Sequence record: SRR31156797_2598
DNA: 20,000 nucleotides
Strand: one strand, 5' to 3'
The translations under genes and the position numbers were made by a program. Within the stretch, counting starts at the first letter, position 1; every line of letters starts with the position of its first letter. Under the pieces are notes generated by a model, which was not told the DNA's origin, did not search any database, and saw only the letters and a list, made by a program, of their open reading frames with translations. Shown piece after piece: positions 1,647-19,920 of this stretch.

Positions 1647-1649
1647 CAT

Positions 1650-5508: not shown

Positions 5509-6483
5509 TTATAGGAATTCATTTTCCAGCATAGAAAACTGTTTTTCAAATGGGGAATAAAGATTTACCTGAATAAGTATTTCTTTCAGTATATCTATAT
5601 TAGCTAACATATCTCTGAAGAAGATCATTTCTGATAGCCTTATAAATGCTTCTAAACAATTGTTCTTAATATCTGGAACCATGGTTTCCAACACAGGTAA
5701 AAGATTATCTGAGTACATTTTTTTACCGATTCTTATCATCCTATCTATTGCTTTAGAGATGTAGAATTGTGCCCATGCCTTGTAATCTTTGATGATTGCC
5801 CTATGCCCAGGAAGAAAAAAAGTATCATTTAATTTAGATAGGTTTATAAGAGTATTGCAAAAGTAAGTATAATTTGAAAATCTTTTGTTTGTATTTTCAA
5901 TATCTGCTTCCATAAGGGCTGTTGTAAATACTCCATTGATCATGATGTCGCCAGAAAACAGGAAATTACCATAAGAGTATATAATGTCACTTTGAGAGTG
6001 CCATCTGGAGTATTGGTATGATAAGCCTACGTACTCTAGAATATGGCTGGATTGCTCAAGAATTTCAAATTCCTCAGTAAAAATGACTTCTGGCGAATGC
6101 AAGGCAGCCATTTGTTTTGCTAAGTCTTTAGGGATACCATAATCCATACATATTTTTGTAATTCCCTTGTGCCTTTCTTCCGATCTATTAATAATATTTG
6201 CATCAGTTTGTGAGATGAAGACTTTTGCATTCGATTTGGACAATAAATGCTTAAGTGCTCCTGTATGGTCCATGTGGGTATGTGTCAAAAAGATCATTTC
6301 AAGTTTTGATAAGTCAAAGTGGCTATCAATATAGTCTTTCGTGTTCTGTGTTGGTGATCCGCAGTCTATGAGACAAAATCCTTTTGGTGTATCAATAGAG
6401 TAAAAATGTACTTTCCCAACATTATAAGGAGTTGTGACAGTATGCTGCTTGATTTTTTTCGGTAATATTATGTTGTTATCCAT
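5509..6483 (-). CDS. Metallo-beta-lactamase-fold metallohydrolase
   Basis: Motifs LIDCG, LTHTHMDHTG (HxHxDH), WHSQSD, FSGD and LPGH. Lies 10 bp downstream of the regulator. Confidence 0.85.
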   Translation of the reverse strand: MDNNIILPKKIKQHTVTTPYNVGKVHFYSIDTPKGFCLIDCGSPTQNTKDYIDSHFDLSKLEMIFLTHTHMDHTGALKHLLSKSNAKVFISQTDANIINRSEERHKGITKICMDYGIPKDLAKQMAALHSPEVIFTEEFEILEQSSHILEYVGLSYQYSRWHSQSDIIYSYGNFLFSGDIMINGVFTTALMEADIENTNKRFSNYTYFCNTLINLSKLNDTFFLPGHRAIIKDYKAWAQFYISKAIDRMIRIGKKMYSDNLLPVLETMVPDIKNNCLEAFIRLSEMIFFRDMLANIDILKEILIQVNLYSPFEKQFSMLENEFL

Positions 6484-6493
6484 TTTTATATGC

Positions 6494-8455
6494 CTAGTGT
6501 AAACCTAATTTTTCTAATTTTTGATATAGTGTTTTTCTAGAAATACCCATTTCTTTAGCAACCATAGATTTATTTCCCTTGTATTGTATAAGGAGTCTTT
6601 TTATTTGTTCTTGTTCGTATTGGGAGTAGCTGATGAAGTCGTTAGTATTATTAATTATCGTCTGCTGTTCATGCTTAATAGAATGAGAATGGTAGAGCTC
6701 GTTAGGCAGATCGTGTGCGGTTATTGTCTTTGATTCAACGATATTAACACATCTCTCTATTACATTTCTCATTTCTCTCAGGTTTCCAGGCCAGCTATAA
6801 TTAGTAAAAGTATCCATGACTTCTTTGTCTATATCGATAACCTCTTTCTGGAAGTTATTTGAAAATTGTTTTAAGAAATGTTTAACCAGTAACGGTATAT
6901 CTTCTCTTCTGTTTCTTAAAGGAGGAAGCTCTATTTTTAAAACATTCAATCTGTAGTAGAGGTCACGCCTGAAAGTACCTGCTTCGATACATTCAAGTAA
7001 GTTTTTGTTTGTTGCAGCAATTATTTTGACATCCAGAGCTATTTGGACAGACCCGCCTATCCTTGTAACCATATGGTCTTCTAAAACTCTGAGTAAAACA
7101 GATTGCATATCAAGCGGCATTTCAGAAATTTCATCAAGGAAGAAAGTACCTCCCTCTGCAAGCTCGAATTTACCTGGAGCTCCATTTTTCCTGGCACCTG
7201 TGAATGCTCCTTCTGTATATCCAAAAAGCTCACTTCCGATAAGCTCTTTCGGTATTGCTGCACAATTCAAAGGGATGAATGGTTTCTTACTTCTGTCGCT
7301 GGCATTATGAATGGATTGAGCGAAGAGTTCTTTTCCTGTTCCGCTTTCTCCGGTGATCAAGACAGTGCTCTGACTTTTGGCTGCAGCAATTGCAAATTTC
7401 TTAGCAGTATTAAAGGCATTTGATTCGCCTATGAGAATATCAAAAGAGTAATAAGCCTTTGAATTAGTAATAGTTTGGAATTTTTTTCTAACTTTTTCAT
7501 AGCTATGCATAGTGATTACCATGCCGTATAGTTTTTTGTTTTTCTTTTTTATTGATACACAGTTGACTAGATACTCCCTTTCATGCTCAGGAAGATGTTC
7601 AAATACTATTCTTGTATTTTCTTTACTAGCTCCTGATTCTAGATATTGTTCTGCAAAAGCTAACTCAGGAAATTCTTGCGATAGCTTTTTGCCAGACACT
7701 TCGGCAAGGCTTTTATTAAAAATGTCATATAATCTACCATTCGCTTCAATTATGTATCCTTCTATATTTATAATTATATAAATACCGCCGGCTTCTTTTG
7801 TTATTTCATTTAGGTAGCTATTTTTTATAAAAACATCAGGCAAATGCCTATAACATGATATGAATAGAAATTGGTTAAGAGCATATTTGAATAATGTTTC
7901 AACATATTCGCTATACAAAGCCATAGGAGCAATTATTACTATTGGAGTTGTGCTGTAGAATGAGTTATCAATGGGAGGTACAGCCATTGTTATATAATCT
8001 GTCAGACATTCGCTGTAGTGTTCCTCTCCTTTTACTATTTCCAAATCACCTTTTTCTATCGCTAATGATATTGCAGTTGTTCCAAGAGATTTTTCAGAGA
8101 ATAGTGTACCAAATCGGATGTTTTTTGCTTTAAGTTCGGCGAGAAGTTGTTTGTCACCACCTTTGTTGAAAAGTTCTAAATCATTGTTTAGATAGAGTAT
8201 TGCCGCCCCTGTTTTTTCAAGCAGTTCATGTGTGTTGGAATAGAGAGTTTCCATATGTTTGAATCGATAGACTATTGCAGAGTTAATTTTATCTATAACG
8301 GTTTGCTTTTCAGATACATAAGGTGATTCTGCTGGGTTTACACCTGAGTATTTTGATCTTCTCCATGATTCAACTATTTCTTTCCTTATATAGCTCCCTG
8401 GCTCTTGCCCATCATAGATGAATGATAAGCGGTACTCCTTTAATGTTTTGCTCAT
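6494..8455 (-). CDS. Sigma54-dependent enhancer-binding protein, AcoR/DhaR-like (GAF-PAS-AAA+-Fis HTH)
   Basis: N-terminal IVESWRRS and LGTTAISLA (AcoR-type GAF), a PAS-like segment, GESGTGKE Walker A, ELFGYTEGAFTGA, FLDEI Walker B, FRRDLYYRL, WPGNLREM and HTH GNKSMVAKEMGISRKTLYQKL. Confidence 0.95.
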   Translation of the reverse strand: MSKTLKEYRLSFIYDGQEPGSYIRKEIVESWRRSKYSGVNPAESPYVSEKQTVIDKINSAIVYRFKHMETLYSNTHELLEKTGAAILYLNNDLELFNKGGDKQLLAELKAKNIRFGTLFSEKSLGTTAISLAIEKGDLEIVKGEEHYSECLTDYITMAVPPIDNSFYSTTPIVIIAPMALYSEYVETLFKYALNQFLFISCYRHLPDVFIKNSYLNEITKEAGGIYIIINIEGYIIEANGRLYDIFNKSLAEVSGKKLSQEFPELAFAEQYLESGASKENTRIVFEHLPEHEREYLVNCVSIKKKNKKLYGMVITMHSYEKVRKKFQTITNSKAYYSFDILIGESNAFNTAKKFAIAAAKSQSTVLITGESGTGKELFAQSIHNASDRSKKPFIPLNCAAIPKELIGSELFGYTEGAFTGARKNGAPGKFELAEGGTFFLDEISEMPLDMQSVLLRVLEDHMVTRIGGSVQIALDVKIIAATNKNLLECIEAGTFRRDLYYRLNVLKIELPPLRNRREDIPLLVKHFLKQFSNNFQKEVIDIDKEVMDTFTNYSWPGNLREMRNVIERCVNIVESKTITAHDLPNELYHSHSIKHEQQTIINNTNDFISYSQYEQEQIKRLLIQYKGNKSMVAKEMGISRKTLYQKLEKLGLH

Positions 8456-8484
8456 GTTCCCTACCTCTTACATAAAGATACGCA

Positions 8485-8542
8485 TGTTTCTTTTTGTTTC
8501 CAGATGATACCACTACTGCACAAAAGGTAACACAATTGTTTC
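8485..8542. promoter_or_regulatory. Putative upstream activator sequence (enhancer) 1
   Basis: Half-sites TGTTTC at 8485, 8495 and 8537 and GTAACA at 8527. CAAAAGGTAACAC (8521-8533) recurs as an exact reverse complement at 17307-17319, upstream of the second sigma54 promoter. Confidence 0.7.
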
Positions 8543-8550
8543 TGGGACAG

Positions 8551-8563: not shown

Positions 8564-8607
8564 TAAACTCTTTTTGATATCAGTGCTTTGACTGATTAAT
8601 ACTATAA

Positions 8608-8623
8608 TGGCATCACTGTTGCA
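8608..8623 (+). promoter_or_regulatory. Sigma54 (-24/-12) promoter of the MFS-cai-fix operon
   Basis: TGGCATCACTGTTGCA has GG-N10-GC spacing. It ends 22 bp before the RBS-preceded ATG at 8646 and is adjacent to a divergent sigma54 activator gene. Confidence 0.9.
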
Positions 8624-8645: not shown

Positions 8646-9893
8646 ATGAGTAATAATCAAGATTCTGGTATTCATTATGGTCTTATGGTTGTTGCAGCAT
8701 GCTGTGCAGTTTGCGGTGCACCTGTTGCTATGACATTTAGTTGTGCAGGTATCTTCTATTCTCCTGTATCAACTGCTCTGGGTGTGGGGCGTGGTACATT
8801 TGGATTGTATATGACAATTTTATGTCTTGCAATGACTTTTACACTGCCGATCGCAGGTAAGATCTTTGCCGAAAGAAGTGTTAAGGTGGTTACTACAACA
8901 TGCGTAGCTCTTATTGCACTGTCATTCTTGGGTATGTCGAGAGCAACGTCAGTTTATCATTTCTATATAGCTGGAGGCTTTTTAGGTATTGCCAACGCTT
9001 TCCTGCTTTATCTTATGACACCAATACTTATCAATGCATGGTTTAAAGCTCGTAAAGGTTTTTTTATAGGTTTATGCATGTCATTTACTGGTGTCGGAGG
9101 GATAATTTTTAACCCTATCGGCGGATATTTGATTCAAAACTATAGCTGGAGAACCGGGTATTTTGCATTTTGTATTTTAAGCATTGTTATCGCATTACCC
9201 TTTACTCTCTTTATTGTGAAAAGGTCACCTGCAGAAAAAGGGCTCAGGCCTTATGGTGATGACGGAAGCAGTGCAGGTGTGGCTGCAAGTGAAGATACTA
9301 AAGGTCTTACTGCTAAAGAAGCTCTTGGGACAGTAACATTTTATATCGTACTATTGTTTGCAGGTCTTCTTGGAATCGTATCATGTGTAAATTTCTACCT
9401 TCCTTCATATGCAAATTCACTTGGTATGGCAACAACTATTGGTGCCGCAGTGGCTTCAGCAAGTATGTTTGGAAATATCATAGGCAAAATTGTTCTCGGA
9501 TATATTAATGATAAAACCATTAGTGGATCAATTATCTTTAGCGCATCTTGCGGTATTGTAGGTCTGCTTGTCCTTCTTACTCTCAAAGGAGGAGGAGTTT
9601 TTGTCTTCATGCTTGGCGGCTTCCTTTACGGTGTGTTCTATGCTGCCACAGTGACTATCCCTCCAATGCTTACAAGAGAAACATTCGGATCTAAACAATA
9701 TGGTCAAATATATTCAAATATTATGATGGTTTCAGCACTTTCGTCAGCTGCTGGTGCATCACTTTGGGGCTTTATTTCTGATGCGTCAGGTGGCTCATTT
9801 GTGGTCAGTTTTACAGTTGCAATATGTATGTGTATCGGCGTGATAATAATTGGCATTACAGCATTAATGACTGGAAAGAAATTAGTGAAGTAA
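8646..9893 (+). CDS. MFS transporter (monocarboxylate/OFA-like)
   Basis: About 12 hydrophobic segments, motif-A-like AGKIFAER and LGYINDK, and WFKARKGFFIG. Start reassigned to 8646 (CAGGAGGA RBS) because the ATG at 8607 lies inside the sigma54 box. Confidence 0.9.
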   Translation: MSNNQDSGIHYGLMVVAACCAVCGAPVAMTFSCAGIFYSPVSTALGVGRGTFGLYMTILCLAMTFTLPIAGKIFAERSVKVVTTTCVALIALSFLGMSRATSVYHFYIAGGFLGIANAFLLYLMTPILINAWFKARKGFFIGLCMSFTGVGGIIFNPIGGYLIQNYSWRTGYFAFCILSIVIALPFTLFIVKRSPAEKGLRPYGDDGSSAGVAASEDTKGLTAKEALGTVTFYIVLLFAGLLGIVSCVNFYLPSYANSLGMATTIGAAVASASMFGNIIGKIVLGYINDKTISGSIIFSASCGIVGLLVLLTLKGGGVFVFMLGGFLYGVFYAATVTIPPMLTRETFGSKQYGQIYSNIMMVSALSSAAGASLWGFISDASGGSFVVSFTVAICMCIGVIIIGITALMTGKKLVK

Positions 9894-9948: not shown

Positions 9949-11100
9949 ATGGATTTTAAATTAACAGAAGAGCAGGAACTTCTTATCGAAAGCCTTGATG
10001 AGTTTATTACAAGAGAGGTTACCGAAGAAGATGTTAAGTCTTGGTATAAGAATCCCAAGAGTGCATGTGAATTCAATAAAGCTTATGTTGAATCAGGATT
10101 CGGAATGATCGGTATCCCTGAGGAATATGGTGGTACTCCTGCAGATATGACTACAAGAATACTTGTAGCCTATAATCTTATCAAAAAAACAGGTGCTTTT
10201 ATTCCATTTACATCAGGCGTACTCACTCTTTTTGATATGTTTGAGTTTGGAACAAAAGAGCAGATTGATCTTGCTCTGAAGATATATCAGGAACAAGGTG
10301 TCAGCCCATTTGCTCTTGCTATTTCTGAGCCTGTTGCTGGTTCAGACAACAGCTCTATGGTTACAGTAGCCAAAACTGTTGGAGATAAAGTAGTTATCAA
10401 TGGAACAAAGACATTTGTTTCAGGTGCACTTGAGTATCCTTACGTACTTGTAGTTGCTAAAGACGAAGTATCAGACAGAGAAAACAAAAATATGTCAATG
10501 TGGCTGCTACCAGCTGATACACCAGGTATTAAATTTAACTCGTTCCATAAAGTTGGTCAGCATTGCCATAGTTTCTGTGAGATATATCTTGAAGATGTGA
10601 CTGTTGATATGAGCCATCTTGTTGGTATCAGGGGTAAAGGTTTCCTTCAGCTTATGGAAAACTTCGAAGTTGAAAGGCTTGTTGTTGCGGCACAGTCTGT
10701 CGGACTTGCTGAGGCTGCCCTTGTAGATGCTGCAAAATATGCTGAGCAGCGAGTTCAGTTTGGTCAGCCTCTGTACAAATTTCAACTTATAGCAGAGCAC
10801 CTTACTGATATGGAAATAAAAGTTAGGAATATGATTAATTATCTGTTCTATTGTGCCTGGAAAGTAGATAGTGGCCTTCCTTTGAGGTTAGATTCTGCTA
10901 CTCTTAAAAGGTATACTTCAAAGACAGCATTCGAAGTTGCAGATTCAGCAATGCAGGTGATGGGTGCAATTGGTTACACTGACGACTGTAGAATTTCAAG
11001 AATTTGGCAAGATTTAAGAGGTCAAAGATTTGCAGGCGGAACAGATGAGATTATGGTTCACATTTCTGGACGAGAAATAATTAAAAAATACTCTAAATAG
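9949..11100 (+). CDS. Acyl-CoA dehydrogenase/reductase, CaiA/YdiO-like
   Basis: MDFKLTEEQELL, IPEEYGG, LAISEPVAGSD, INGTKTFVSG, FEVERL, AMQVMGAIGY and RFAGGTDEIM resemble E. coli CaiA/YdiO as I recall them. RBS CAGGAGG. Confidence 0.9.
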   Translation: MDFKLTEEQELLIESLDEFITREVTEEDVKSWYKNPKSACEFNKAYVESGFGMIGIPEEYGGTPADMTTRILVAYNLIKKTGAFIPFTSGVLTLFDMFEFGTKEQIDLALKIYQEQGVSPFALAISEPVAGSDNSSMVTVAKTVGDKVVINGTKTFVSGALEYPYVLVVAKDEVSDRENKNMSMWLLPADTPGIKFNSFHKVGQHCHSFCEIYLEDVTVDMSHLVGIRGKGFLQLMENFEVERLVVAAQSVGLAEAALVDAAKYAEQRVQFGQPLYKFQLIAEHLTDMEIKVRNMINYLFYCAWKVDSGLPLRLDSATLKRYTSKTAFEVADSAMQVMGAIGYTDDCRISRIWQDLRGQRFAGGTDEIMVHISGREIIKKYSK

Positions 11101-11112: not shown

Positions 11113-12345
11113 ATGTTAGAAAACAAAAATATGCCTAAATTCGGGCCACTACAAGGTGTTAAGGTTCTTCATGCTTCAGCTTCACTTGCAGGGCCTTATG
11201 CTGCTCAGCTGATGGCTGATTTCGGTGCTGATGTTACATGGATTGAGAATACAGATATCCCTGATATTTCAAGATACGGAACAGCTCTTGTTGTTTCTCA
11301 TGAGAGAAGAAACCAGAGAAACATTTCTATAAACCTTGCTAAAGGAGAAGGTAAAGATGTGTTTCTTGAAATGCTCAAAGATGTGGATATATTTATAGAG
11401 ACATCTAAGGCTGGGCAATATACAAAATGGGGCCTCACTGATGAAGTGATGTGGGGAGTGAACCCTAAGCTAGTCATTCTCCACATTTCTGGTTTCGGAC
11501 AGGACGGTCTGCCTGAATATACCAACCGTCCATCTTTCGACCCTATTGCTCAGGCTTTTAGCGGTTTCATGAACGTAAATGGTTTCGAAGATCGTCCACC
11601 GGTAACAGTAGTACCGTTTATAGCTGACTGTATGACAGGTCTTTATGGTGTATTCTCTATACTCGCAGCCCTGCACAGGGCAAAAAACACAGGCGAGGGA
11701 GAGAGTATCGACCTTGCTCAATATGAAATAATGGTTAGATCTCAGGTGTATATGGCAGACTACAGAACAAATGGTATTACATATAAAAGAGAAGGAAGTA
11801 AATCTGCTGCTTATGCCGGCTGGGGAACATATGAGTGTAAAGACGGTAATAATGTTTTTGCTGTTATCATTGGCGGAGGTGTAATTAAACGCGCTGCTGA
11901 GTTCTTCGGATTTGAATACGGAACAGAGATTATTCCTAAAGGTTGCAGTATCACTATTGCAGGAACTCCGGCAGGTATTCTTCTTGAAGAAAAACTTGCA
12001 GCATATTTTTCAAGCAGGACAGCATTTGAAGCAGAAGCGGAGTGTGTCGCACAAGGTCTGCCAGTTTCCAAAATAAATACCTACGAAGATATTGTAAACA
12101 ATCCTCATGTTAAGGCTCGTGGTATTTTTGCTGATTGGGAAGATTTTAAAGGCAAAACTATCAAAGGTGTAGGAGCTGTGCCAAAAATGAAAAATAATCC
12201 CGGCCGTGTATGGAGACCGGCTCCAGAGCAGGGGATGGATAATGAAGAAATTCTGGCAGAAATTGGCTTAACTGAAGAGCAGATAAGTGAACTTTATGAG
12301 AAAGGTATTATTAAAAAGAGCGAACTTGATCTAAATAGACAGTAA
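11113..12345 (+). CDS. caiB: Class III CoA-transferase, CaiB-like
   Basis: MPKFGPLQG...AGPYAAQLMADFGADVTWIEN closely parallels the CaiB N-terminus. ISGFGQ and IAQAFSG are present, the catalytic Asp is in PFIAD, and the C-terminus reads NNPGRVWR...GMDNEEIL. Family assignment is strong; the substrate is uncertain. Confidence 0.85.
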   Translation: MLENKNMPKFGPLQGVKVLHASASLAGPYAAQLMADFGADVTWIENTDIPDISRYGTALVVSHERRNQRNISINLAKGEGKDVFLEMLKDVDIFIETSKAGQYTKWGLTDEVMWGVNPKLVILHISGFGQDGLPEYTNRPSFDPIAQAFSGFMNVNGFEDRPPVTVVPFIADCMTGLYGVFSILAALHRAKNTGEGESIDLAQYEIMVRSQVYMADYRTNGITYKREGSKSAAYAGWGTYECKDGNNVFAVIIGGGVIKRAAEFFGFEYGTEIIPKGCSITIAGTPAGILLEEKLAAYFSSRTAFEAEAECVAQGLPVSKINTYEDIVNNPHVKARGIFADWEDFKGKTIKGVGAVPKMKNNPGRVWRPAPEQGMDNEEILAEIGLTEEQISELYEKGIIKKSELDLNRQ

Positions 12346-13896: not shown

Positions 13897-14657
13897 TGAA
13901 TACAATCGTTTGTTATAAAGTAGTTTATGAAGAGCAGGATATTGTTGTCAACGATGACTCAAGCCTCTCTTTTGATAGAGCTGAGCTTAAACTCAGTCTT
14001 TACGATTTAAATGCCGTTGAAGCAGCAGTATGCCTTTCTGAGGAAACAGATGGAAAGACTGTTGCCATGACTATTGGTGATAGCAAGGTAGATAATAGTA
14101 AAATGAAAAAAGCTATCCTTTCCAGAGGTCCTCAGGAACTTTGCATAGTACCTGAGGAAACGTTTGGAACAGCTGATACAAGCCAGACAGCAAAGGTTCT
14201 TGCCGCTTCTGTCGCAAAGTTAGAATACGATGTGATTTTCTGTGGGGAAGGCTCTGCTGATAATTATGCACAGCAAACAGGGATTCAGCTTGGTGAACTG
14301 CTTGGTCTCCCTGTTGTTAACAGTGTCAGCAAAGTTACAGTTGATGGAGATAAGCTCATTGTTGAAAGAACTCTTGAATCTTCCGTAGAAGTTATTGAAG
14401 TCCCTACTCCAGCTGTGATTTGCGTTACCAGTGATATTAATAAGACTCGTTTGCCAAATATGAAGGACATTCTGGCCGCAGGTAAAAAGCCTGTGACAAC
14501 CCTGTCTGTTGCTGATCTTGGAATCGATATGCCAGAGAAAACTCTAGATATCATAAGCGTTGTTGCTCCTACTCAGAAAGAGCGCAAGTGTCAGATCTTC
14601 GAAGGTGAAGATAAAGTCACAGAATTCTACGATTCAATCAGCAAAGAGATTAAATAG
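13893..14657 (+). CDS. fixA: Electron transfer flavoprotein beta subunit, enteric FixA/YdiQ type
   Basis: IVCYKVV.EEQDI, YDLNAVEAA, LSRGP, CGEGSADNYAQQTG and RLPNMKDILAAGKKPV. ATGA overlap with the ligase gene. Confidence 0.92.
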   Translation: MMNTIVCYKVVYEEQDIVVNDDSSLSFDRAELKLSLYDLNAVEAAVCLSEETDGKTVAMTIGDSKVDNSKMKKAILSRGPQELCIVPEETFGTADTSQTAKVLAASVAKLEYDVIFCGEGSADNYAQQTGIQLGELLGLPVVNSVSKVTVDGDKLIVERTLESSVEVIEVPTPAVICVTSDINKTRLPNMKDILAAGKKPVTTLSVADLGIDMPEKTLDIISVVAPTQKERKCQIFEGEDKVTEFYDSISKEIK

Positions 14658-14666: not shown

Positions 14667-15581
14667 ATGAAAACACTTATTTTCAGTAATAATATAAATC
14701 AGTACGCAGAACTTAGTGCCGGAGCGAAATCTCTCGATTCTGAAGTGATTGCATATGTTGTCGGTTCTGTAGAACTGGCAGATCAAATAGCCTCATTTAC
14801 AGACAAAGTTTTTTTTACTCCTTCAGAGGATAGAATGGTAGAGGAGTTTACTAACACTCTGAAGAGTGTAGTAGAAAGTGAAAACCCTGAGCTTATCCTT
14901 ATGAGTCCTGATAAGTCATCTAAGTTTATGGCTGCAAGCCTCGCGGCAAAGCTGGGTACATCAGTTATTACAGATGCTATGTCTATCGAGACGGACGGCA
15001 GCGCTGTCAAATGTCAGCAGCTTTACTACGGCGGTACAGCGGTTAAAACTGTGAAAAGTCTCAGCCAGGCGATAGTTATTGTGGGAGCAGGAACATATGA
15101 TCCTGTTCAGGCCGGAGCAAAAGGCTCTGTTGAAAGTGTTGATATGGTTGAGTCTGGTTTTAAAATCGTAAGAAGAGAGATTCGCAAAAAGGAGGGTGAA
15201 ATAGTCAATCTTGCGGCTGCTAAAAAGGTCGTTGGTGTTGGACGTGGTTTTGCATCAAAAGATGACATCGGCATGGCTGAAACTCTTGCTAAGGCAATTG
15301 GAGCTGAAGTCGGCTGTACAAGACCTATTGCAGAAGGCGAAGGCTGGATGGCAACTGCCAGATACATCGGTGTCTCAGGTGTAGTTCTTAAACCTGATGT
15401 TTATATTGCTGTTGGTCTTTCCGGACAGATCCAACACACTATTGGTGTTAGCTCAGCGAAGACTATTGTTGCTATCAACAAAGATAAAAACGCCCCAATT
15501 TTTAAAAATTGTGACTATGGCATTGTCGGCGATCTTTATAAGGTTTTGCCTGCAATCATAGATATGGTTAAGGCGGGTTAG
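14667..15581 (+). CDS. fixB: Electron transfer flavoprotein alpha subunit
   Basis: YYGG, VVGVGRG, VGCTRPIAE, YIGVSG, VGLSGQIQH and AINKDKNAPIF..CDYGIVGDL. Confidence 0.93.
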   Translation: MKTLIFSNNINQYAELSAGAKSLDSEVIAYVVGSVELADQIASFTDKVFFTPSEDRMVEEFTNTLKSVVESENPELILMSPDKSSKFMAASLAAKLGTSVITDAMSIETDGSAVKCQQLYYGGTAVKTVKSLSQAIVIVGAGTYDPVQAGAKGSVESVDMVESGFKIVRREIRKKEGEIVNLAAAKKVVGVGRGFASKDDIGMAETLAKAIGAEVGCTRPIAEGEGWMATARYIGVSGVVLKPDVYIAVGLSGQIQHTIGVSSAKTIVAINKDKNAPIFKNCDYGIVGDLYKVLPAIIDMVKAG

Positions 15582-15618: not shown

Positions 15619-16911
15619 ATGGAAGAGGCACAGTTTGATGTAATAATTGTAGGCGGAGGTATAGCAGGTGCTACTGCTGCATTGAAGCTTGCAAGAGAAG
15701 GGCTTGAGGTTGTTGTTGTTGAGAGAGGCAACTTCTCAGGAGCTAAAAATATGACAGGAGGCAGGCTCTATAGTCATAGTTTGAAAGGACTTATCCCAGA
15801 TTTTGAAGATATAGCACCTGTCGAGAGAAAAGTTACTCAGGAAAGGGTCAGCATGATGACTGAGACGGGAATGACTACAGTTGGTTTTATGAGTGAAAAC
15901 CTTGCGGTTGAGTCTAAAGATTCATATATCGTTTTACGTAGTGTTTTTGATAGATGGCTTATGGAAATGGCCGAAGAAGCAGGAGCTATGCCTGTTCCTA
16001 GTATCTGTGTTGATGACCTTGTATATAGAGACGGAAAAGTTGTTGGTATTAAAGCTGGCGACGAAGATATGTTTGCAGATGTCGTGATACTGGCAGATGG
16101 AGCAAACTCTCTCTTAGTGGAAAAGTGTGGACTGCGTAAGAAAAGGATAACTTCTCATGAAATTGCAGTTGGTGCTAAAGAAGTTATTCAGCTTGGAGAG
16201 AAGACAATTGAGGACAGGTTTAACCTTATTGAAAATGAAGGTCTGTCGTGGCTTTTTGCTGGTTATCCTTCAGCAGGAAGCATAGGGGGGGGATTACTAT
16301 ACACTAATAGAGATAGCATATCTTTAGGTGTTGTAGTGACTTTGGAAGAGTTTAAAAAGCAGAAAAAATCTTTGCATGAGATGCTTGAAGATTTTAAGCA
16401 GCATCCCGCAGTTAAACCTCTGATAAAAGATGGGAAACTTGTCGAATATTCTGGTCATATGGTTCCTGAAGGAGGATATAATATGATCTCTGATCTATAT
16501 TCTGACGGTATTATGGTTATAGGCGATGCAGCAGGACTTGTGATTAACGCAGGTTATACAGTAAGGGGTATGGACTTGGCTGTGGGCTCAGCTATCGCAG
16601 CAGCAGATGCTGTTATAGAAGCCAAAGCAAAGAATGACTTTTCTGCTGCCTCATTATCTAAATATAAAAAACTATTGGATAGTAGTTTCGTCATGAGAGA
16701 TATGAAAAATGTTAAGAATTTCCCTGCTTTCATGGAAAATCATAGAATTTTCAATGATTATCCGGCAATGGCAGAGAAGATGATGTCTAATTTGTTTGTT
16801 GTCGATGGAGAACTACCAAAAAGTATGTTCAGCAAGATGGTTGACCCTGTGAAAGAAGTCGGAATTATGAATCTGTTGAAAGACGGAATCAAAGGAGTAC
16901 GAGCACTATGA
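15619..16911 (+). CDS. fixC: FAD-dependent ETF:quinone oxidoreductase-like protein FixC
   Basis: FDVIIVGGGIAG, ERGNFSGAKNMTGGRLY, ADGANS, GGGLLYTN, EYSGHMVPEGG, GDAAG and RGMDLA. Confidence 0.93.
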   Translation: MEEAQFDVIIVGGGIAGATAALKLAREGLEVVVVERGNFSGAKNMTGGRLYSHSLKGLIPDFEDIAPVERKVTQERVSMMTETGMTTVGFMSENLAVESKDSYIVLRSVFDRWLMEMAEEAGAMPVPSICVDDLVYRDGKVVGIKAGDEDMFADVVILADGANSLLVEKCGLRKKRITSHEIAVGAKEVIQLGEKTIEDRFNLIENEGLSWLFAGYPSAGSIGGGLLYTNRDSISLGVVVTLEEFKKQKKSLHEMLEDFKQHPAVKPLIKDGKLVEYSGHMVPEGGYNMISDLYSDGIMVIGDAAGLVINAGYTVRGMDLAVGSAIAAADAVIEAKAKNDFSAASLSKYKKLLDSSFVMRDMKNVKNFPAFMENHRIFNDYPAMAEKMMSNLFVVDGELPKSMFSKMVDPVKEVGIMNLLKDGIKGVRAL

Positions 16912-17192
16912 GTAACCGTATAACTGTTGAAGAGAAGCTTGCTGTAGACAAGTTCTATGTAGATGAGGAATATCCGCATATTGAGGTAGATAAAGCCGCG
17001 TCGGTAGAGGATATTATGGTTCTCGTGAGAGCTTGTCCTGCGGGGCTTTACAAATATGACGATGGTGTTTTAAAGTTTGATTATGCCGGGTGCTTTGAGT
17101 GCGGCACATGTCGGATACTAGGCACTGGGAATGTCGTCACAAAATGGACATTTCCGAAAGGCTCCATGGGTATAGAATACAGGTTTGGTTAA
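16908..17192 (+). CDS. fixX: Ferredoxin-like protein FixX (enteric type)
   Basis: KFYVDEEYPHI, ACPAGLYK, FDYAGCFECGTCRILG and W.FPKG.MGIEYRFG. ATGA overlap with fixC. Confidence 0.93.
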   Translation: MSNRITVEEKLAVDKFYVDEEYPHIEVDKAASVEDIMVLVRACPAGLYKYDDGVLKFDYAGCFECGTCRILGTGNVVTKWTFPKGSMGIEYRFG

Positions 17193-17196
17193 TTAG

Positions 17197-17224
17197 AAGC
17201 CCCTTTTTAAGGGGCTTTTTTTTT
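17197..17224 (+). terminator. Strong rho-independent terminator after fixX
   Basis: AAGCCCCTT-ttt-AAGGGGCTT followed by a T run to 17224. Confidence 0.92.
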
Positions 17225-17286
17225 CGTAATATTTCATCTCAGAATAATCAAATCTAGACTTATGCGGGCAGGTTTCAAAATTATTT

Positions 17287-17355
17287 TGTTTCTGCTTGCT
17301 TTGAAAGTGTTACCTTTTGGAACTCATATGAAACAATCTTTTACAAAAGTAAACA
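17287..17355. promoter_or_regulatory. Putative upstream activator sequence (enhancer) 2
   Basis: Half-sites TGTTTC 17287, TGTTAC 17308, GAAACA 17330 and TAAACA 17350. 17307-17355 aligns without gaps, in inverted orientation, to 8485-8533. Confidence 0.7.
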
Positions 17356-17432
17356 GTTGTTGTCTTCAATTAAATCTCAAATCAATTATAAATATCATAT
17401 GTATAAGCTTTTTATCTTTGTACAGGGAAGCA

Positions 17433-17448
17433 TGGCACTGTGTTTGCA
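17433..17448 (+). promoter_or_regulatory. Sigma54 (-24/-12) promoter of the porin-CoA transferase unit
   Basis: TGGCACTGTGTTTGCA matches the consensus TGGCAC-N5-TTGCW and ends 41 bp before the porin ATG. Confidence 0.93.
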
Positions 17449-17489
17449 ATAGAAATAAATGATCGCTTGTAACAAATTTGGAGGTACAT

Positions 17490-18794
17490 ATGATTTACAA
17501 ACATCACGATTCTGTTGCTAAGAACACAGACAACTTAACACAGAAATGGTTCGGCTTTTTTCTTGCAGTATTGATAGGTGGATTGTTTTTAATTGCTAAT
17601 CCTGTAGAGACTTTTGCTGCAACAAATCTTAAAGAAATGTTTAAAGAAGGAACATTGTCTGGAGAGATCAGGTACAGGAACTTTACTAGAAACTATGACG
17701 AATCGTCAAGAGACAGGAACGACAATGCTCTTGGTACTTTATTTAAATATACTTCTGGTGAGCTTTACGGAGTCAGCCTAGGGATAAGTTATCTGAGTAC
17801 ATCAGATATCAACAGTAACGATGATAAAAACGTTTATGGTCTTGTGAAAAATGATAACGGAGATCACGAAAGTTATACTAAACTGGGTGAATATTATGTG
17901 AAAGGTTCATGGTTTAACACCGATATTATTGCAGGTTCACATGAAATATTTACTCCGTTCCTTAACAAATGGGATTTTCGTATGCACCCGAAACTTTATA
18001 AAGGCGTGTCTGTTATCAACAAAAGTATAAATGGTCTTGAAGTTCAAGGTCACTATATTTCTCAGATACTTCAATATAATAACGACGAGTATCAGAGCAT
18101 TTCAAGTGGGTACAGTGCGTCTATTGATGAAAAAAAACCACTCGCAATTCTTGGCGCTAAATACACTCTGCCAGAAAGTATTGTAAATAAAGTTACTCTT
18201 CAGGGGTGGACATATAGGATGCCTGATGTCTACAGTTTTAACTATCTAACTGCTAGCTCTAAAACAAAGCTTACAGATAACTATACTCTGAACCTTCGTG
18301 GAGATTACATTATACAAAATGATATTGGTGATGCACTTGCTGGCGAAAAAGATACATACCAGTATGGCTCAAAAGCAGGAATTGCAGCTTATGGCCTTAG
18401 TCTTGACTTCGCATTTTCAGTAACTGGCGACGATTCTCTTTCAGTACCTTTCGGCGATACTCTTATTGTTTCACAGGCTCCAGGAGCAGCTTTAAGAGCA
18501 GAAGAGAAAGGCTACATGGTAAGACTGATGTATCATTTTGATACTATTGGTATTAAAGGTCTATGGGGTTACATAGATCATGCTTACTATGATACGCCAG
18601 AGTCCGGTACAAATGCTTCTTATGATATTCGTGAAACTGATTTCGATCTCTTTTATGACTTTAGTGGTCCTCTCGAAGGTCTTGGTATACGTTTTCGATT
18701 TGCACATGTGGATGCTGATGAAGATATGGGTGGCGTAGACTGTAACGATATAAGATACTATGCAACTTATAAATTTAAATTTTCAGGATTATAA
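17490..18794 (+). CDS. Outer membrane porin, OprD/Occ-like family
   Basis: Signal peptide ending TFA-A, mature N-terminus TNLKEMFKEGTLSGEIRYRNF, alternating aromatic beta-strands, LGEYYVKG, and C-terminal ETDFDLFYDFSGPLEGLGIRFR...RYYATYKF. Start set at ATG 17490, after GGAGGT at 17480. Confidence 0.8.
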   Translation: MIYKHHDSVAKNTDNLTQKWFGFFLAVLIGGLFLIANPVETFAATNLKEMFKEGTLSGEIRYRNFTRNYDESSRDRNDNALGTLFKYTSGELYGVSLGISYLSTSDINSNDDKNVYGLVKNDNGDHESYTKLGEYYVKGSWFNTDIIAGSHEIFTPFLNKWDFRMHPKLYKGVSVINKSINGLEVQGHYISQILQYNNDEYQSISSGYSASIDEKKPLAILGAKYTLPESIVNKVTLQGWTYRMPDVYSFNYLTASSKTKLTDNYTLNLRGDYIIQNDIGDALAGEKDTYQYGSKAGIAAYGLSLDFAFSVTGDDSLSVPFGDTLIVSQAPGAALRAEEKGYMVRLMYHFDTIGIKGLWGYIDHAYYDTPESGTNASYDIRETDFDLFYDFSGPLEGLGIRFRFAHVDADEDMGGVDCNDIRYYATYKFKFSGL

Positions 18795-18810
18795 GAAGCA
18801 GGAGTAATAG

Positions 18811-19854
18811 ATGTTATCAGGAGTTACAGTAATAGACCTTACACGGTACTTACCTGGACCATATGGAACACTTAGGTTGGCTGACTTAGGGGCAAAAGTG
18901 ATAAAAATAGAGCCACCTGAGGGTGACCCTGCTCAAAATATGCTTGTTGTTGACGATAAGGGTGTAAAAAGCAGCTGTTTGTACACCTCGCAGAATAGAG
19001 ATAAACAGTCAATAAGGTTAAATCTTAAGGATAACAATGATCGAGCTTTGATTCTAAAAATGATAGAAACTGCAGATGTTTTTATTGAAGGTTTTAGACC
19101 TGGTGTGGTGACTAGGCTTGGCCTGAACTATGATACATTAGCAGAAATTAACCCTGATCTTATTTATTGTTCTTTATCTGGGTACGGGCAAAATTCCAGC
19201 ATTGCCCATCTCGGGGGACACGATATTAACTTTGTCGCACTGAGTGGCTTGTATTCCATGCTTACTGAAAAAGACGGCTCACCGATAACAACAGAATTCC
19301 CTTTTGCTGATATCATGGGCGGTTTTGCGTTATCCGAATCTGTTTTAGCAGGTCTTGTTCAACGAAGTATAAAGAGAAAAGGGGGCTATATTGACTTGTC
19401 AATCACAGACAGTATGGTATCTATAATGGGACTTTTCCTTATGCGGGAATGTCTTACAGATAAGCAAGATAAATATATTCCAGTAGTATCCTATAATATA
19501 TATGCAACAAAAGACCGTAGGTTTGTCTCTATTGGTGCTATAGAAAGAAAGTTTTGGGATAACTTCTGTATGGAGACAGGGCATCAGGAGTGGATACAGT
19601 ATCAACGCACTCCATCTACTTCTGAGAACCCTGTTTTTAATGCGATAGTTGGGCTTTTTGCTTCTAAAACATTCAAAGAATGGGAATTGTTTGCTAAAAA
19701 AGTCGATTGTTGCATGATGCCTGTCTATACTCCAATAGAGATGTCTGAAAACGAGTATGTTCAGTCAAGGGGACTTATAAAGAATGAATCAAATAAGAAG
19801 CATGTTTTGTCACAATACAAAACACCTGTAGGTTCTAATAACTTTTGTATTTAA
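18811..19854 (+). CDS. CaiB/BaiF class III CoA-transferase-fold protein, alpha-methylacyl-CoA racemase-like subgroup
   Basis: DLTRYLPGPY...LADLGAKVIKIEPP.GD, EGFRPGV..RLGL, SGYGQ, GHDINF and FADIMGG. RBS CAGGAG. Confidence 0.85.
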   Translation: MLSGVTVIDLTRYLPGPYGTLRLADLGAKVIKIEPPEGDPAQNMLVVDDKGVKSSCLYTSQNRDKQSIRLNLKDNNDRALILKMIETADVFIEGFRPGVVTRLGLNYDTLAEINPDLIYCSLSGYGQNSSIAHLGGHDINFVALSGLYSMLTEKDGSPITTEFPFADIMGGFALSESVLAGLVQRSIKRKGGYIDLSITDSMVSIMGLFLMRECLTDKQDKYIPVVSYNIYATKDRRFVSIGAIERKFWDNFCMETGHQEWIQYQRTPSTSENPVFNAIVGLFASKTFKEWELFAKKVDCCMMPVYTPIEMSENEYVQSRGLIKNESNKKHVLSQYKTPVGSNNFCI

Positions 19855-19884
19855 CAAACAGTATTATTAGTACTAATTCTTGTT

Positions 19885-19920
19885 ATGCCGTGTGGTTCTA
19901 TCGGACTGCACGGCATTTTC
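19885..19920 (+). terminator. Putative intrinsic terminator
   Basis: 14-bp stem ATGCCGTGTGGTTC-tatc-GGACTGCACGGCAT with three G-U pairs that form only on the + strand, followed by a short T run. Confidence 0.7.

What the first reader, a model, noticed from the sequence alone, without database searches (positions are those of the whole stretch)
5509..19920. Sigma54-controlled cai/fix-like locus rebuilt for an unknown organic acid: candidate new CoA-dependent enoate respiration or catabolic system
Seen: one co-oriented operon MFS-acyl-CoA dehydrogenase-class III CoA transferase-CoA ligase-fixABCX, closed by a terminator. It is flanked by a divergent AcoR-like activator with an MBL hydrolase and by a co-regulated porin and AMACR-like gene. 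Established: in E. coli, caiTABCDE and fixABCX are divergent, sigma70/CRP/CaiF-controlled, and need the BCCT antiporter CaiT and the hydratase CaiD to use carnitine. The transferase + ligase + dehydrogenase + ETF set without a hydratase parallels caffeate reduction (carABCDE) in Acetobacterium woodii. Inference: the substrate enters through a porin and MFS, is primed by the ligase and recycled by the transferase, and is reduced or oxidised at the alpha,beta bond with electrons exchanged with the quinone pool via FixABCX. An already unsaturated acid would explain the missing hydratase. The substrate cannot be read from the sequence.
Basis: partly seen in the sequence, partly recalled or inferred. 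Interest (0 to 1): 0.8.

Follow-up and report, generated by a model that had tools for sequence, protein, structure and literature searches.

The report
Sigma-54 controlled acyl-CoA redox module
This is a regulated gene set that imports an unknown organic acid, attaches it to coenzyme A, flips or shifts it with a racemase-like enzyme and adds or removes two hydrogens while trading electrons with the membrane quinone pool; it resembles the carnitine system of E. coli but belongs to an unstudied family shared with strict anaerobes.

Summary
Window 5509-19920 carries a divergent sigma-54 activator plus MBL hydrolase. It also carries a sigma-54-promoted operon (MFS, acyl-CoA dehydrogenase, CaiB-like CoA-transferase, AMP-ligase, ETF beta/alpha, FixC, FixX, terminator). 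A second sigma-54 promoter then drives an OprD porin and an AMACR-like gene, ending in a terminator.

It is not a rearranged carnitine pathway. The dehydrogenase is 37% identical to E. coli CaiA and 46% to YdiO, and falls in a separate clade. No BCCT transporter or crotonase lies in the window. It is also not unique. Sporomusa, Gracilibacter and Desulfitobacterium MAGs carry the same ten-gene set, with sigma-54-like promoters upstream. The dehydrogenase-ETF-FixCX core is widespread in Eggerthellaceae, Cellulomonas and Enterobacterales.

The final gene keeps the positions that I recall as the AMACR catalytic His and Asp, and it sits beside the dehydrogenase in the closest relatives. An MBL-fold gene recurs inside four other clusters.

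Best reading: a self-contained CoA-shuttle module that reduces, or less likely oxidises, the alpha,beta bond of an alpha-chiral or branched acid and is wired to quinone. Substrate, direction and host are unresolved. I rate it a new variant of a known kind, of moderate interest.

The parts
5509..6483 (-). MBL-fold metallo-hydrolase (324 aa), 10 bp downstream of the activator gene; probable thioesterase or esterase/lactonase accessory
   Evidence: Pfam Lactamase_B. HTHMDH motif at residue 68. The metal ligands H68, H70, H73, H162, D179 and H227 are invariant in 36 aligned sequences. The model has pLDDT 94.7. Best folds are uncharacterised MBL proteins and a Bacillus paraoxonase; PqsE and GloB rank lower. 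The subfamily is rare: 33 representatives at E<=1e-30 among 1.84 billion. Relatives sit inside ACAD-ETF clusters L033, L056, L067 and L020.
6494..8455 (-). Sigma-54 enhancer-binding activator (653 aa): N-terminal sensor region, weak PAS, AAA+ domain, HTH
   Evidence: Sigma54_activat 228 bits, AAA_lid_14 and HTH_8. Best NCBIfam models are PrdR, DhaR and AtoC, all below their cut-offs. GAFTGA at residue 416. PAS match is weak only, at residues 222-317.
8521..8533 (+). Candidate activator-binding site, copy 1 (CAAAAGGTAACAC), 75 bp before the -24 box
   Evidence: The 13-mer is shared only with 17307-17319 on the opposite strand. A shared word of 13 or more arose in 24 of 5000 shuffles. Binding is inferred, not shown.
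8608..8622 (+). Sigma-54 promoter 1 (TGGCAT-N5-TTGC)
   Evidence: AGGAGG and ATG 8646 follow.
8646..9893 (+). MFS transporter (415 aa from ATG 8646), oxalate/formate-antiporter or monocarboxylate-like
   Evidence: MFS_1 117 bits. Best NCBIfam models are the L-lactate MFS SfMCT (107 bits), a bile-salt MFS (100 bits) and the OFA subfamily, all far below their cut-offs.
9949..11100 (+). CaiA/YdiO-superfamily acyl-CoA dehydrogenase or enoyl-CoA reductase (383 aa)
   Evidence: YdiO-type model 513.7 bits (cut-off 537); CaiA model 295.5 bits (cut-off 540). 46% identical to E. coli YdiO and 37% to CaiA. Sits in its own clade with two metagenome proteins, inside a 30-row clade with Sporomusa, Gracilibacter, Desulfitobacterium and Eggerthellaceae. 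Carries ExER plus GGT in place of xGR plus YEGT.
11113..12345 (+). CaiB-like class III CoA-transferase (410 aa)
   Evidence: CoA_transf_3 295 bits. CaiB model 422.3 bits against a cut-off of 413. 324 bits to E. coli CaiB structures and 41% identity. In the tree it lies in a 14-row clade with Gracilibacter and Eggerthellaceae, sister to the group holding E. coli CaiB.
12361..13896 (+). AMP-forming acyl-CoA ligase (511 aa), specificity not assignable
   Evidence: AMP-binding 200 bits. No NCBIfam cut-off is met; the CaiC model scores 188 against 651. Best PDB match is MenE at 179 bits.
13893..14657 (+). ETF beta subunit (FixA/YdiQ-like)
   Evidence: YdiQ model 321 bits (cut-off 338); FixA subfamily model 258.8 bits (cut-off 219). 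44% identical to both E. coli FixA and YdiQ.
14667..15581 (+). ETF alpha subunit (FixB/YdiR-like, 304 aa, no extra ferredoxin domain)
   Evidence: ETF_alpha and ETF domains. YdiR model 266 bits and FixB model 233 bits, both below their cut-offs.
15619..16911 (+). FixC/YdiS-type ETF:quinone oxidoreductase
   Evidence: NF007450 545 bits (cut-off 466) and ETFQO_UQ-bd. 258 bits to FixC of the Thermotoga maritima EtfABCX structure 7koe.
16908..17192 (+). FixX/YdiT-type ferredoxin-like protein
   Evidence: FixX model 118.7 bits (cut-off 166). Four Cys at residues 43, 62, 65 and 68.
17195..17219 (+). Intrinsic terminator of the first operon
   Evidence: 11-pair stem followed by a T run.
17307..17319 (-). 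Candidate activator-binding site, copy 2 (same 13-mer, inverted), 114 bp before the -24 box
17433..17447 (+). Sigma-54 promoter 2 (TGGCAC-N5-TTGC, no mismatch)
   Evidence: GGAGG and ATG 17490 follow.
17490..18794 (+). OprD-family outer-membrane porin (434 aa)
   Evidence: OprD 108 bits. Only 4 homologues among the candidates scored from 5.8 billion proteins, the best at 59% and 56% identity.
18811..19854 (+). AMACR-like racemase/epimerase of the class III CoA-transferase fold (347 aa)
   Evidence: Aligns over its length with the M. tuberculosis racemases MCR 1x74 and FAR 2g04. GHDIN and ADIMGG fall on MCR His126 and Asp156. The His is present in 6 of 58 class III rows from the loci, all of them CoAT2-type, and in 121 of 121 rows of the query plus its 120 best homologues. 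Forms a 5-row clade with the Sporomusa, Gracilibacter, Desulfitobacterium-type and Syntrophomonas genes that sit next to the dehydrogenase.
19885..19920 (+). Intrinsic terminator of the porin/racemase unit
   Evidence: 14-pair hairpin followed by UUUU, dG -22.3, z -5.7.

Best explanation
This is a self-contained, sigma-54/activator-induced 'CoA-shuttle' module of the Cai/Ydi type, acting on an unknown carboxylic acid.

Proposed mechanism (all steps inferred from families and gene order):
1. The acid crosses the outer membrane through the OprD-type porin and the inner membrane through the MFS carrier, possibly in exchange for the product.
2. The AMP-ligase makes the first CoA thioester.
3. The CaiB-like transferase then passes CoA from product to incoming substrate.
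4. The AMACR-like enzyme abstracts the C2 proton. It either epimerises an alpha-substituted acyl-CoA or delivers the right enoyl-CoA isomer.
5. The CaiA/YdiO-superfamily flavoenzyme reduces the C2=C3 bond. Electrons come from quinol through FixCX and the FixAB-like ETF.
6. The MBL hydrolase probably frees CoA or unmasks the acid.

I favour the reductive, electron-sink direction over the oxidative one by about 55:45. I favour an alpha-branched or alpha-chiral monocarboxylate as the substrate class.

What is shown: the gene families, the promoters, the conserved synteny and the phylogenetic position. What is inferred: every biochemical step, the direction and the substrate class.
For: Families and order.

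Sigma-54 control:
- Two correctly placed -24/-12 boxes.
- A 13-mer unique to the two promoter regions (24 of 5000 shuffles).
- Sigma-54-like boxes upstream of the homologous operons: with 1 mismatch in L033 (three sites), and with 2 mismatches in L001, L002, L003 (two sites), L083 and L026.

Self-contained module:
- L001 (Sporomusa MAG), L002 (Gracilibacter) and L003 (Desulfitobacterium MAG) hold activator, CoAT1, MFS, AMACR-like, ACAD, ETF beta/alpha, FixC, FixX and ligase.
- None of the 45 flanking or intervening ORFs that I scanned by Pfam (29, 16) is a crotonase, 3-hydroxyacyl-CoA dehydrogenase or thiolase.

Quinone link:
- FixC scores 545 bits on the YdiS-type model and 258 bits to FixC of T. 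maritima EtfABCX.

Precedent:
- The ligase plus CaiB-type transferase pairing and product/substrate CoA cycling, and fixABCX feeding electrons to crotonobetaine, are described for E. coli (PMC2131755, passages read).

Racemase-type enzyme as a core partner.

MBL gene recurrently embedded in such clusters.

Hosts of the closest modules are anaerobes. L002 has a DmsABC-like reductase 2.4 kb upstream. MCP genes flank L001, L033 and L057.
Against: - No substrate is identified and no enzyme was assayed.
- A racemase is not needed for simple enoate reduction and fits oxidation of a racemic or (R)-2-methyl acid better.
- The YdiO-type relatives in Salmonella are reported to serve anaerobic butyrate oxidation (review PMC9530198, one passage read, citing Bronner 2018).
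- One relative (L022) is from a Syntrophomonas MAG. That genus is one I recall as fatty-acid-oxidising.
- The ETF type, bifurcating or not, could not be settled. ETF beta scores about equally against bifurcating and canonical ETFs: 92-63 bits.
- Whether beta-oxidation genes, caiD or caiT lie elsewhere in the genome cannot be checked, because no genome is held.
- The sigma-54 box count alone is not above chance.
Confidence: 0.45

Rival explanations
1. Oxidative entry module. The operon activates a 2-methyl-branched or other alpha-chiral acid, racemises it to the isomer the dehydrogenase accepts, and oxidises it to the enoyl-CoA. Electrons pass through ETF and FixCX to quinone. Hydratase, dehydrogenase and thiolase encoded elsewhere finish the degradation.
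For: - The AMACR-type gene is tightly coupled to the dehydrogenase. In known pathways, as I recall, AMACR feeds 2-methylacyl-CoA to stereospecific dehydrogenases.
- The YdiO-type model is the best match.
- Salmonella ydiQRSTD is reported to support anaerobic butyrate oxidation (PMC9530198, passage).
- A Syntrophomonas MAG carries MFS, ligase, racemase-like and ACAD genes (L022).
Against: - No downstream beta-oxidation gene was found in the window.
- None was found among the 45 flanking or intervening ORFs that I scanned in related loci.
- A CaiB-type transferase plus a priming ligase is the hallmark of product/substrate CoA cycling (PMC2131755).
- As I recall, many hosts of the module family use menaquinone, and oxidising acyl-CoA with menaquinone is uphill. 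Neither point was tested here.
Confidence: 0.3
2. A rearranged carnitine/crotonobetaine (or gamma-butyrobetaine) pathway. The CaiB-like transferase and CaiA-like reductase act on trimethylammonium acids, with the MFS standing in for CaiT.
For: - The transferase passes the NCBIfam L-carnitine CoA-transferase cut-off (422.3 against 413).
- It scores 324 bits to E. coli CaiB structures.
- FixABCX-like genes are present.
Against: - The dehydrogenase scores 295.5 against the CaiA cut-off of 540, is 37% identical to CaiA, and lies on the other side of the tree.
- The ligase scores 188 against the CaiC cut-off of 651.
- No BCCT transporter, CaiD-type crotonase or CaiE lies in the window.
- The transferase is not nested with E. 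coli CaiB.
- The carrier is related to carboxylate-anion MFS carriers.
- Control is by sigma-54, not CRP/CaiF (PMC2131755).
Confidence: 0.07
3. Hydroxycinnamate (caffeate/ferulate-type) respiration. Esterases encoded next door release phenylpropenoic acids, which are reduced at the CoA level as in Acetobacterium woodii CarABCDE.
For: - The enzyme classes match CarA (class III transferase), CarB (ligase), CarC (ACAD) and CarDE (ETF); the Car functions are recalled.
- The neighbouring hydrolase at 3168-4181(-) passes the Pfam threshold for BD-FAE, the bifunctional feruloyl/acetyl-xylan esterase family (30.7 against 26.8).
- Two relatives carry an OYE-type enoate/dienoyl reductase next to the dehydrogenase (L026, L022).
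Against: - CarC scores only 143.6 bits, below generic butyryl-CoA dehydrogenases.
- ETF alpha has no extra ferredoxin domain, and the Car system, as I recall, has no FixCX.
- The esterase genes lie outside the locus, beyond a 288-bp spacer with hairpins, and their G+C is higher (43-46% against 33-35% for the adjacent MBL and activator genes).
- A racemase has no role with cinnamates.
Confidence: 0.08

Closest known systems
E. coli caiTABCDE + fixABCX (carnitine/crotonobetaine respiration)
   Same: - Priming ligase, class III CoA-transferase for CoA cycling, CaiA/YdiO-superfamily flavoenzyme, FixAB-like ETF and FixCX.
- Identities to the E. coli proteins: CaiB 41%, CaiA 37%, FixA 44%, FixB 37%, FixC 52%, FixX 55%.
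- The dehydrogenases share the ExER/GGT signature.
   Different: - MFS instead of the BCCT antiporter CaiT.
- No CaiD crotonase and no CaiE.
- One co-oriented operon instead of divergent cai and fix operons.
- Sigma-54 with an activator instead of CRP/CaiF.
- Added AMACR-like gene, porin and MBL hydrolase.
- The dehydrogenase lies outside the CaiA clade.
E. coli / Salmonella ydiO-ydiQRST-fadK(ydiD) locus
   Same: - Best-scoring models for the dehydrogenase (YdiO-type, 513.7 bits), ETF beta (YdiQ-type, 321 bits), ETF alpha (YdiR-type, 266 bits) and FixC (YdiS-type, 545 bits).
- Gene order dehydrogenase, ETF, FixCX-like, ligase, as also seen in Budvicia, Citrobacter and Phytobacter loci.
- 46% identity to YdiO.
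   Different: - E. coli has the class I transferase YdiF and the AraC-type regulator YdiP; here there is a class III CaiB-like transferase and a sigma-54 activator.
- No racemase, porin or MBL gene is annotated in the fetched E. coli ydi stretch.
- The window protein lies in a different clade.
Uncharacterised modules in Sporomusa, Gracilibacter and Desulfitobacterium MAGs (L001, L002, L003/L083) and Desulfitobacterium sp. THU1 (L033)
   Same: - L001 and L003 hold the same ten gene families, including the AMACR-like gene and the sigma-54 activator; in L002 the activator copy lies beyond the ligase.
- Identities: dehydrogenase 55-59%, AMACR-like 47-48%, MFS 45-50%, FixC 54-55%.
- Sigma-54-like promoters upstream.
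- L033 has an MBL gene inside the operon.
   Different: - Different gene order.
- No porin.
- In L001-L003 the AMACR-like gene is immediately upstream of the dehydrogenase; here it is in a separate promoter unit with the porin.
- The window's transferase is closer to those of L026, L033, L057 and Eggerthellaceae than to those of L001-L003.
Acetobacterium woodii CarABCDE (caffeate respiration)
   Same: Same enzyme classes (class III transferase, ligase, ACAD-type reductase, ETF) and the same CoA-loop logic. The Car functions are recalled, apart from the PDB names.
   Different: - No specific kinship: CarC 143.6 bits against 164-177 bits for ordinary butyryl-CoA dehydrogenases.
- As I recall, the Car system has no FixCX and uses a bifurcating ETF with NADH and ferredoxin; here the link is to quinone.
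Alpha-methylacyl-CoA racemase (M. tuberculosis MCR 1x74, FAR 2g04)
   Same: The last gene aligns over residues 2-317 with MCR (119.6 bits). It keeps His and Asp at MCR positions 126 and 156. Its length of 347 aa compares with 360 aa for MCR.
   Different: Low sequence similarity (119.6 bits over the full length). Embedded in an anaerobic ETF/FixCX module. The catalytic roles of His126 and Asp156 are recalled, not tested.
FixABCX / EtfABCX electron-bifurcating complexes (Azotobacter, Thermotoga)
   Same: FixC scores 258 bits to T. maritima FixC. FixX-like four-Cys protein. Same four-subunit set.
   Different: Here the set is fused to a substrate-specific dehydrogenase operon, as in E. coli cai/ydi. 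ETF alpha is short (304 aa). Bifurcation could not be tested.

Membership tests
Cai carnitine pathway | CaiA-type crotonobetainyl-CoA reductase | tested here: not met
   CaiA model 295.5 bits against a cut-off of 540. 37% identity. E. coli CaiA lies in the other half of the 75-row tree, a split with support 99.
Cai carnitine pathway | CaiB-type betainyl-CoA transferase | tested here: inconclusive
   CaiB model 422.3 bits against a cut-off of 413, a narrow pass. 41% identity. In the tree it sits in a 14-row clade apart from the 5-row group holding E. coli CaiB. Only one true CaiB was in the tree.
Cai carnitine pathway | BCCT antiporter CaiT, crotonase CaiD and ligase CaiC | tested here: not met
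   No BCCT or crotonase domain in any of the 18 ORFs of the window. The CaiC model scores 188 against 651. The rest of the genome could not be searched.
Cai carnitine pathway | FixABCX electron-transfer set | tested here: met
   FixA subfamily model 258.8 bits against a cut-off of 219. FixC-type proteins 545 and 519 bits. FixX 118.7 bits, below its cut-off of 166. 44-55% identity to E. coli FixA, FixC and FixX.
Enterobacterial ydiO-ydiQRST-fadK module | YdiO equivalog and YdiQRST equivalogs | tested here: inconclusive
   YdiO 513.7 against 537, YdiQ 321 against 338 and YdiR 266 against 528 all fall below cut-off. YdiS-type 545 against 466 passes. The window protein is not in the clade of E. 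coli, Budvicia and Citrobacter YdiO.
Enterobacterial ydiO-ydiQRST-fadK module | Class I CoA-transferase YdiF and AraC-type regulator YdiP | tested here: not met
   E. coli annotation compared with the window, which has two CoA_transf_3 (class III) proteins and a sigma-54 activator.
Car caffeate-respiration system | CarC-type reductase with a bifurcating CarDE | tested here: not met
   CarC 143.6 bits, ranked ninth, behind generic dehydrogenases. CarD 90 bits, similar to other ETFs. ETF alpha has only the ETF and ETF_alpha domains.
Alpha-methylacyl-CoA racemase (for 18811-19854) | His126/Asp156-equivalent acid/base pair on a short (~350-aa) class III fold | tested here: met
   Alignment to 1x74 places GHDIN and ADIMGG on positions 126 and 156. 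The His is present in 121 of 121 rows of the query plus its 120 best homologues. It is absent from all 52 transferase-type rows of 58. The roles of the residues are recalled.
Alpha-methylacyl-CoA racemase (for 18811-19854) | Racemase activity on 2-methylacyl-CoA | not testable with these tools
   Needs an enzyme assay.
Sigma-54-dependent operon | -24 GG / -12 GC promoter plus a cognate AAA+ activator with GAFTGA | tested here: met
   Boxes at 8608-8622 and 17433-17447. Sigma54_activat 228 bits. GAFTGA at residue 416. The presence of rpoN in the genome could not be tested.
Electron-bifurcating ETF (FixAB/EtfAB group 2) | Second FAD and NADH site on the ETF | tested here: inconclusive
   ETF beta scores 92-63 bits against both bifurcating (LctB, CarD, C. 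difficile, A. fermentans) and canonical (human, Paracoccus) ETFs. The paper that defines the motifs was not held.

The most novel reading that the evidence does not exclude
The racemase-fold enzyme is the functional replacement of the missing CaiD. By abstracting the C2 proton it would eliminate a beta-substituent, or shift a beta,gamma double bond, and so create the enoyl-CoA that the CaiA/YdiO-type reductase then reduces with quinol electrons. This would define a new, widespread, sigma-54-controlled family of CoA-level organic-acid respirations in anaerobes (Sporomusa, Desulfitobacterium, Gracilibacter, Syntrophomonas). A Gram-negative lineage would have acquired it and fitted it with its own substrate porin under the same activator.
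Probability: 0.15. Interest if true: 0.75.

Novelty: new variant of a known kind. Interest (0 to 1): 0.5.

Why it matters
Cai- and Ydi-type modules are the only studied cases in which an acyl-CoA dehydrogenase is wired to the quinone pool through FixABCX-like proteins. The physiological substrate of the YdiO branch is still poorly defined.

This locus and its relatives show that the core has been combined repeatedly with different transferases, carriers, a racemase-fold enzyme and an MBL hydrolase, under sigma-54 control, across several phyla. Identifying the substrate would add either a new organic electron acceptor or a new anaerobic route for branched acids. It would also give functions to two recurrent accessory enzymes.

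A cultured organism may make this testable. Desulfosporosinus fructosivorans holds a 58% dehydrogenase homologue and a 49% racemase-like homologue, each listed with a longest contig of 141,198 bp.

Tried and rejected
- Host identification failed. No genome is held.
- The genome scan found no dehydrogenase closer than 59%. The metagenome scan also found none closer than 59% and did not return the 79% and 74% relatives seen in the protein search.
- The porin has only 4 homologues. It matches at about 30% identity in 18 of 401 sampled Thermodesulfobacteriota.
- The flanking DUF362 protein reaches 58% identity there (337 of 401 genomes have a match). Five genomes taken from the best DUF362 and porin hits have no dehydrogenase homologue at E<=1e-60 (0 of 5). 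The phylum is therefore only a weak lead.
- Horizontal transfer from Bacillota is suggested by the closest homologues and by lower G+C (locus genes 33-44%, left flank 39-48%). The G+C ranges overlap, so I do not claim transfer.
- Five literature searches found no description of this cluster type. Passages of PMC9888536 and PMC6615313 mention other sigma-54/ETF operons only.
- The ETF classification paper (Garcia Costas 2017) is not held, so the ETF group is unassigned.
- Earlier findings of this scan gave nothing.
- Rfam gave no match in the window.
- The window MBL and the L033 MBL are only 24% identical (E 3e-5). The link rests on family-level searches.
- The fold search gave uncharacterised MBL proteins first, so the hydrolase's substrate stays open.
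- No supplements were consulted.

Full report
**Anatomy**

On the minus strand lie a 653-aa sigma-54 activator (6494-8455) and an MBL-fold protein (5509-6483). The activator has Sigma54_activat at 228 bits, AAA_lid_14, HTH_8 and GAFTGA at residue 416. The MBL gene follows it after 10 bp.

On the plus strand lie these genes:
- an MFS carrier;
- an acyl-CoA dehydrogenase (9949-11100);
- a class III CoA-transferase (11113-12345);
- an AMP-ligase (12361-13896);
- ETF beta (13893-14657) and ETF alpha (14667-15581);
- a FixC/YdiS-type flavoprotein (15619-16911);
- a FixX-type protein with four Cys (16908-17192).

A strong terminator at 17195-17219 closes this operon. After a 270-bp spacer come an OprD-family porin (17490-18794) and a second, shorter class III-fold protein (18811-19854). 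A 14-pair hairpin followed by a U run closes this unit (dG -22.3, z -5.7).

No Rfam family matches anywhere in the window.

**Regulation**

A search for TGGCAC-N5-TTGC with one mismatch allowed gave exactly two hits, at 8608-8622 and 17433-17447. Two hits are not more than chance: 1.15 were expected, and 58 of 200 shuffles gave two or more.

Their placement is what counts. Both lie on the coding strand, in the only two intergenic regions that precede the plus-strand units. Each is followed by a Shine-Dalgarno sequence and an ATG. The first box overlaps the ATG at 8607, so the MFS more likely starts at ATG 8646. The porin more likely starts at ATG 17490.

The two regions also share the 13-mer CAAAAGGTAACAC in opposite orientations. 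It ends 75 bp before the -24 box of promoter 1 and 114 bp before that of promoter 2, and occurs nowhere else in the window. A shared word that long arose in 24 of 5000 shuffles. I read it as a candidate activator site. Binding is not shown.

**What the proteins are**

The dehydrogenase scores 513.7 bits on the YdiO-type model (cut-off 537) and 295.5 bits on the CaiA model (cut-off 540). It is 46% identical to E. coli YdiO and 37% to CaiA.

In a 75-row tree (quick IQ-TREE, SH-aLRT) it groups with two metagenome proteins of 79% and 74% identity. This group sits inside a 30-row clade (support 99) with the Sporomusa, Gracilibacter and Desulfitobacterium MAG proteins and Eggerthellaceae. E. coli CaiA and YdiO lie in the other, 45-row half.

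Every row that grouped with CaiA, YdiO or the window protein shows an acidic-x-ER motif (ExER in nearly all). These rows also have a small residue, mostly Gly, where the 14 Bcd-like metagenome rows have xGR and mostly YEGT. The alignment to 1buc shows the YEGT glutamate facing Gly. From memory, this puts the catalytic base at the isovaleryl-CoA-dehydrogenase position.

The first transferase narrowly passes the CaiB model (422.3 against 413). It scores 324 bits to CaiB structures and is 41% identical to E. coli CaiB. In a 52-row tree it falls in a 14-row clade with Gracilibacter and Eggerthellaceae proteins, beside but not within the small group holding E. coli CaiB.

The ligase meets no specific model. 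Its best PDB match is MenE at 179 bits.

FixC scores 545 bits on the YdiS-type model and 258 bits to FixC of the Thermotoga EtfABCX structure.

ETF beta is about equally distant from bifurcating and canonical ETFs. The ETF type is therefore open.

**The last gene is racemase-like**

The 347-aa protein aligns along its length with the M. tuberculosis racemases MCR and FAR. Counting along the printed MCR sequence, its GHDIN and ADIMGG motifs fall on MCR His126 and Asp156. I recall these two residues as the catalytic pair.

Among 58 class III-fold proteins taken from the window and the fetched loci, only six carry that His. All six are of this short type. All 52 transferase-type rows have Phe or Tyr at that position. 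The His and Asp are present in 121 of 121 rows made of the query and its 120 best database homologues.

**Relatives**

A genome-collection scan seeded with a dehydrogenase alignment returned 80 loci. Mapping the window proteins onto them gave three results.

- The block dehydrogenase, ETF beta, ETF alpha, FixC, FixX is widespread. It occurs in Eggerthellaceae, Cellulomonas and other Actinomycetota, several Bacillota, Desulfovibrio MAGs and Enterobacterales. In Enterobacterales it is the ydi locus.
- The three loci with the most similar dehydrogenases hold activator, CaiB-like transferase, MFS, racemase-like gene, dehydrogenase, ETF beta/alpha, FixC, FixX and ligase. These are L001 (Sporomusa MAG), L002 (Gracilibacter) and L003 (Desulfitobacterium MAG). 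That is the window's gene set in another order, without a porin.
- A Syntrophomonas MAG (L022) has MFS, ligase, racemase-like gene and dehydrogenase.

Sigma-54-like boxes of the form TGGCAT-N5-TTGC precede these operons. With one mismatch they occur in L033, at three sites. With two mismatches they occur in L001, L002, L003 (two sites), L083 and L026.

I scanned 45 flanking or intervening ORFs of these loci by Pfam (29, 16). They include MCP chemoreceptors, a DmsABC-like reductase, an OYE-type reductase, transporters and unrelated genes. None is a crotonase, 3-hydroxyacyl-CoA dehydrogenase or thiolase.

**The MBL protein**

It belongs to a rare subfamily: 33 representatives at E<=1e-30 and 458 at E<=1e-3 among 1.84 billion. 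All the binuclear-metal ligands are conserved.

The model is confident (pLDDT 94.7). Foldseek puts uncharacterised MBL proteins and a Bacillus paraoxonase first. PqsE and glyoxalase II rank further down. I recall PqsE as an acyl-CoA thioesterase.

Sixty-five family members were used as tblastn queries against all fetched loci. They hit co-oriented genes inside four other dehydrogenase-ETF clusters: L033, L056, L067 and L020. The hydrolase is therefore probably part of the pathway. A thioesterase or an ester/lactone-opening role are both open.

**Interpretation**

The architecture matches the CoA cycle described for E. coli carnitine metabolism: ligase priming, CaiB-type recycling, and FixABCX delivering electrons to the reductase (PMC2131755, passages). 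The membership tests for the carnitine pathway fail, however, on CaiA, CaiC, CaiD, CaiT and the mode of regulation.

Several features make me favour conversion of an imported acid to an excreted, more reduced product. The module is self-contained in several phyla. The MFS is related to exchanger-type carriers. The hosts of the closest modules are anaerobes.

The racemase-like partner argues the other way, as do the reported role of Salmonella ydiQRSTD in anaerobic butyrate oxidation (PMC9530198, one passage) and the Syntrophomonas relative. They keep the oxidative reading close behind.

The racemase-like enzyme also supports a bolder idea: that it generates the enoyl-CoA by elimination or double-bond shift, in place of CaiD. 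This rests on recalled side activities of AMACR only.

**Limits**

- No genome is held, so caiD, caiT, rpoN, the quinone type and beta-oxidation genes elsewhere are unknown.
- The host is unidentified.
- Characterised CarC, BbuA, FldA and BaiF sequences could not be brought into the trees. Only PDB scores were available.
- The trees used the quick method.
- Five literature searches found no description of this module. That covers only the held library.

Noticed in passing
window 3168-5220 (-): Two alpha/beta hydrolases with hydrophobic, signal-like N-termini lie just left of the locus. The first passes the Pfam threshold for BD-FAE, the bifunctional feruloyl/acetyl-xylan esterase family (30.7 against 26.8 bits). 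The second is dienelactone-hydrolase/S15-like. They may supply acids to the module, but they sit beyond a 288-bp spacer with hairpins and have higher G+C.
   Followed up: partly
window 3-3163 (+): DUF6599, a DUF362 protein with a twin-arginine signal, a NapH-like protein and a NapG-like polyferredoxin. This looks like a periplasm-facing redox module of unknown function. The DUF362 protein reaches 58% identity in sampled Thermodesulfobacteriota, a weak lead to the host phylum.
   Followed up: partly
L026:7112-9169 and L022:5342-7309: In a second Gracilibacter locus and in the Syntrophomonas MAG locus, an OYE plus Pyr_redox_2 flavoenzyme (655-685 aa) lies near the dehydrogenase: directly after it in L022 and after the transferase in L026. 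Its domain pair is, as I recall, that of 2,4-dienoyl-CoA, BaiCD and 2-enoate reductases. This hints at dienoyl or conjugated substrates in some family members.
   Followed up: no
L001:14263-16251, L033:3043-3906, L057:16984-17835: Methyl-accepting chemotaxis protein genes flank three of the related modules, and the one in L001 has a dCache sensor domain. This suggests chemotaxis towards the substrate.
   Followed up: no
L014 (Edaphovirga cremea) 8497-19034: An enterobacterial locus combines a DASS-type carrier, a dehydrogenase, a CaiB-like transferase, a sugar-type MFS, two ORFs with no Pfam match at E<=1e-12, and ETF/FixCX. This is another uncharacterised combination built on the same core.
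   Followed up: no
L003:6246-7351: In the Desulfitobacterium MAG locus the CaiB-like transferase is read as two ORFs (179 and 201 aa). This could be a frameshift or an assembly error.
   Followed up: no
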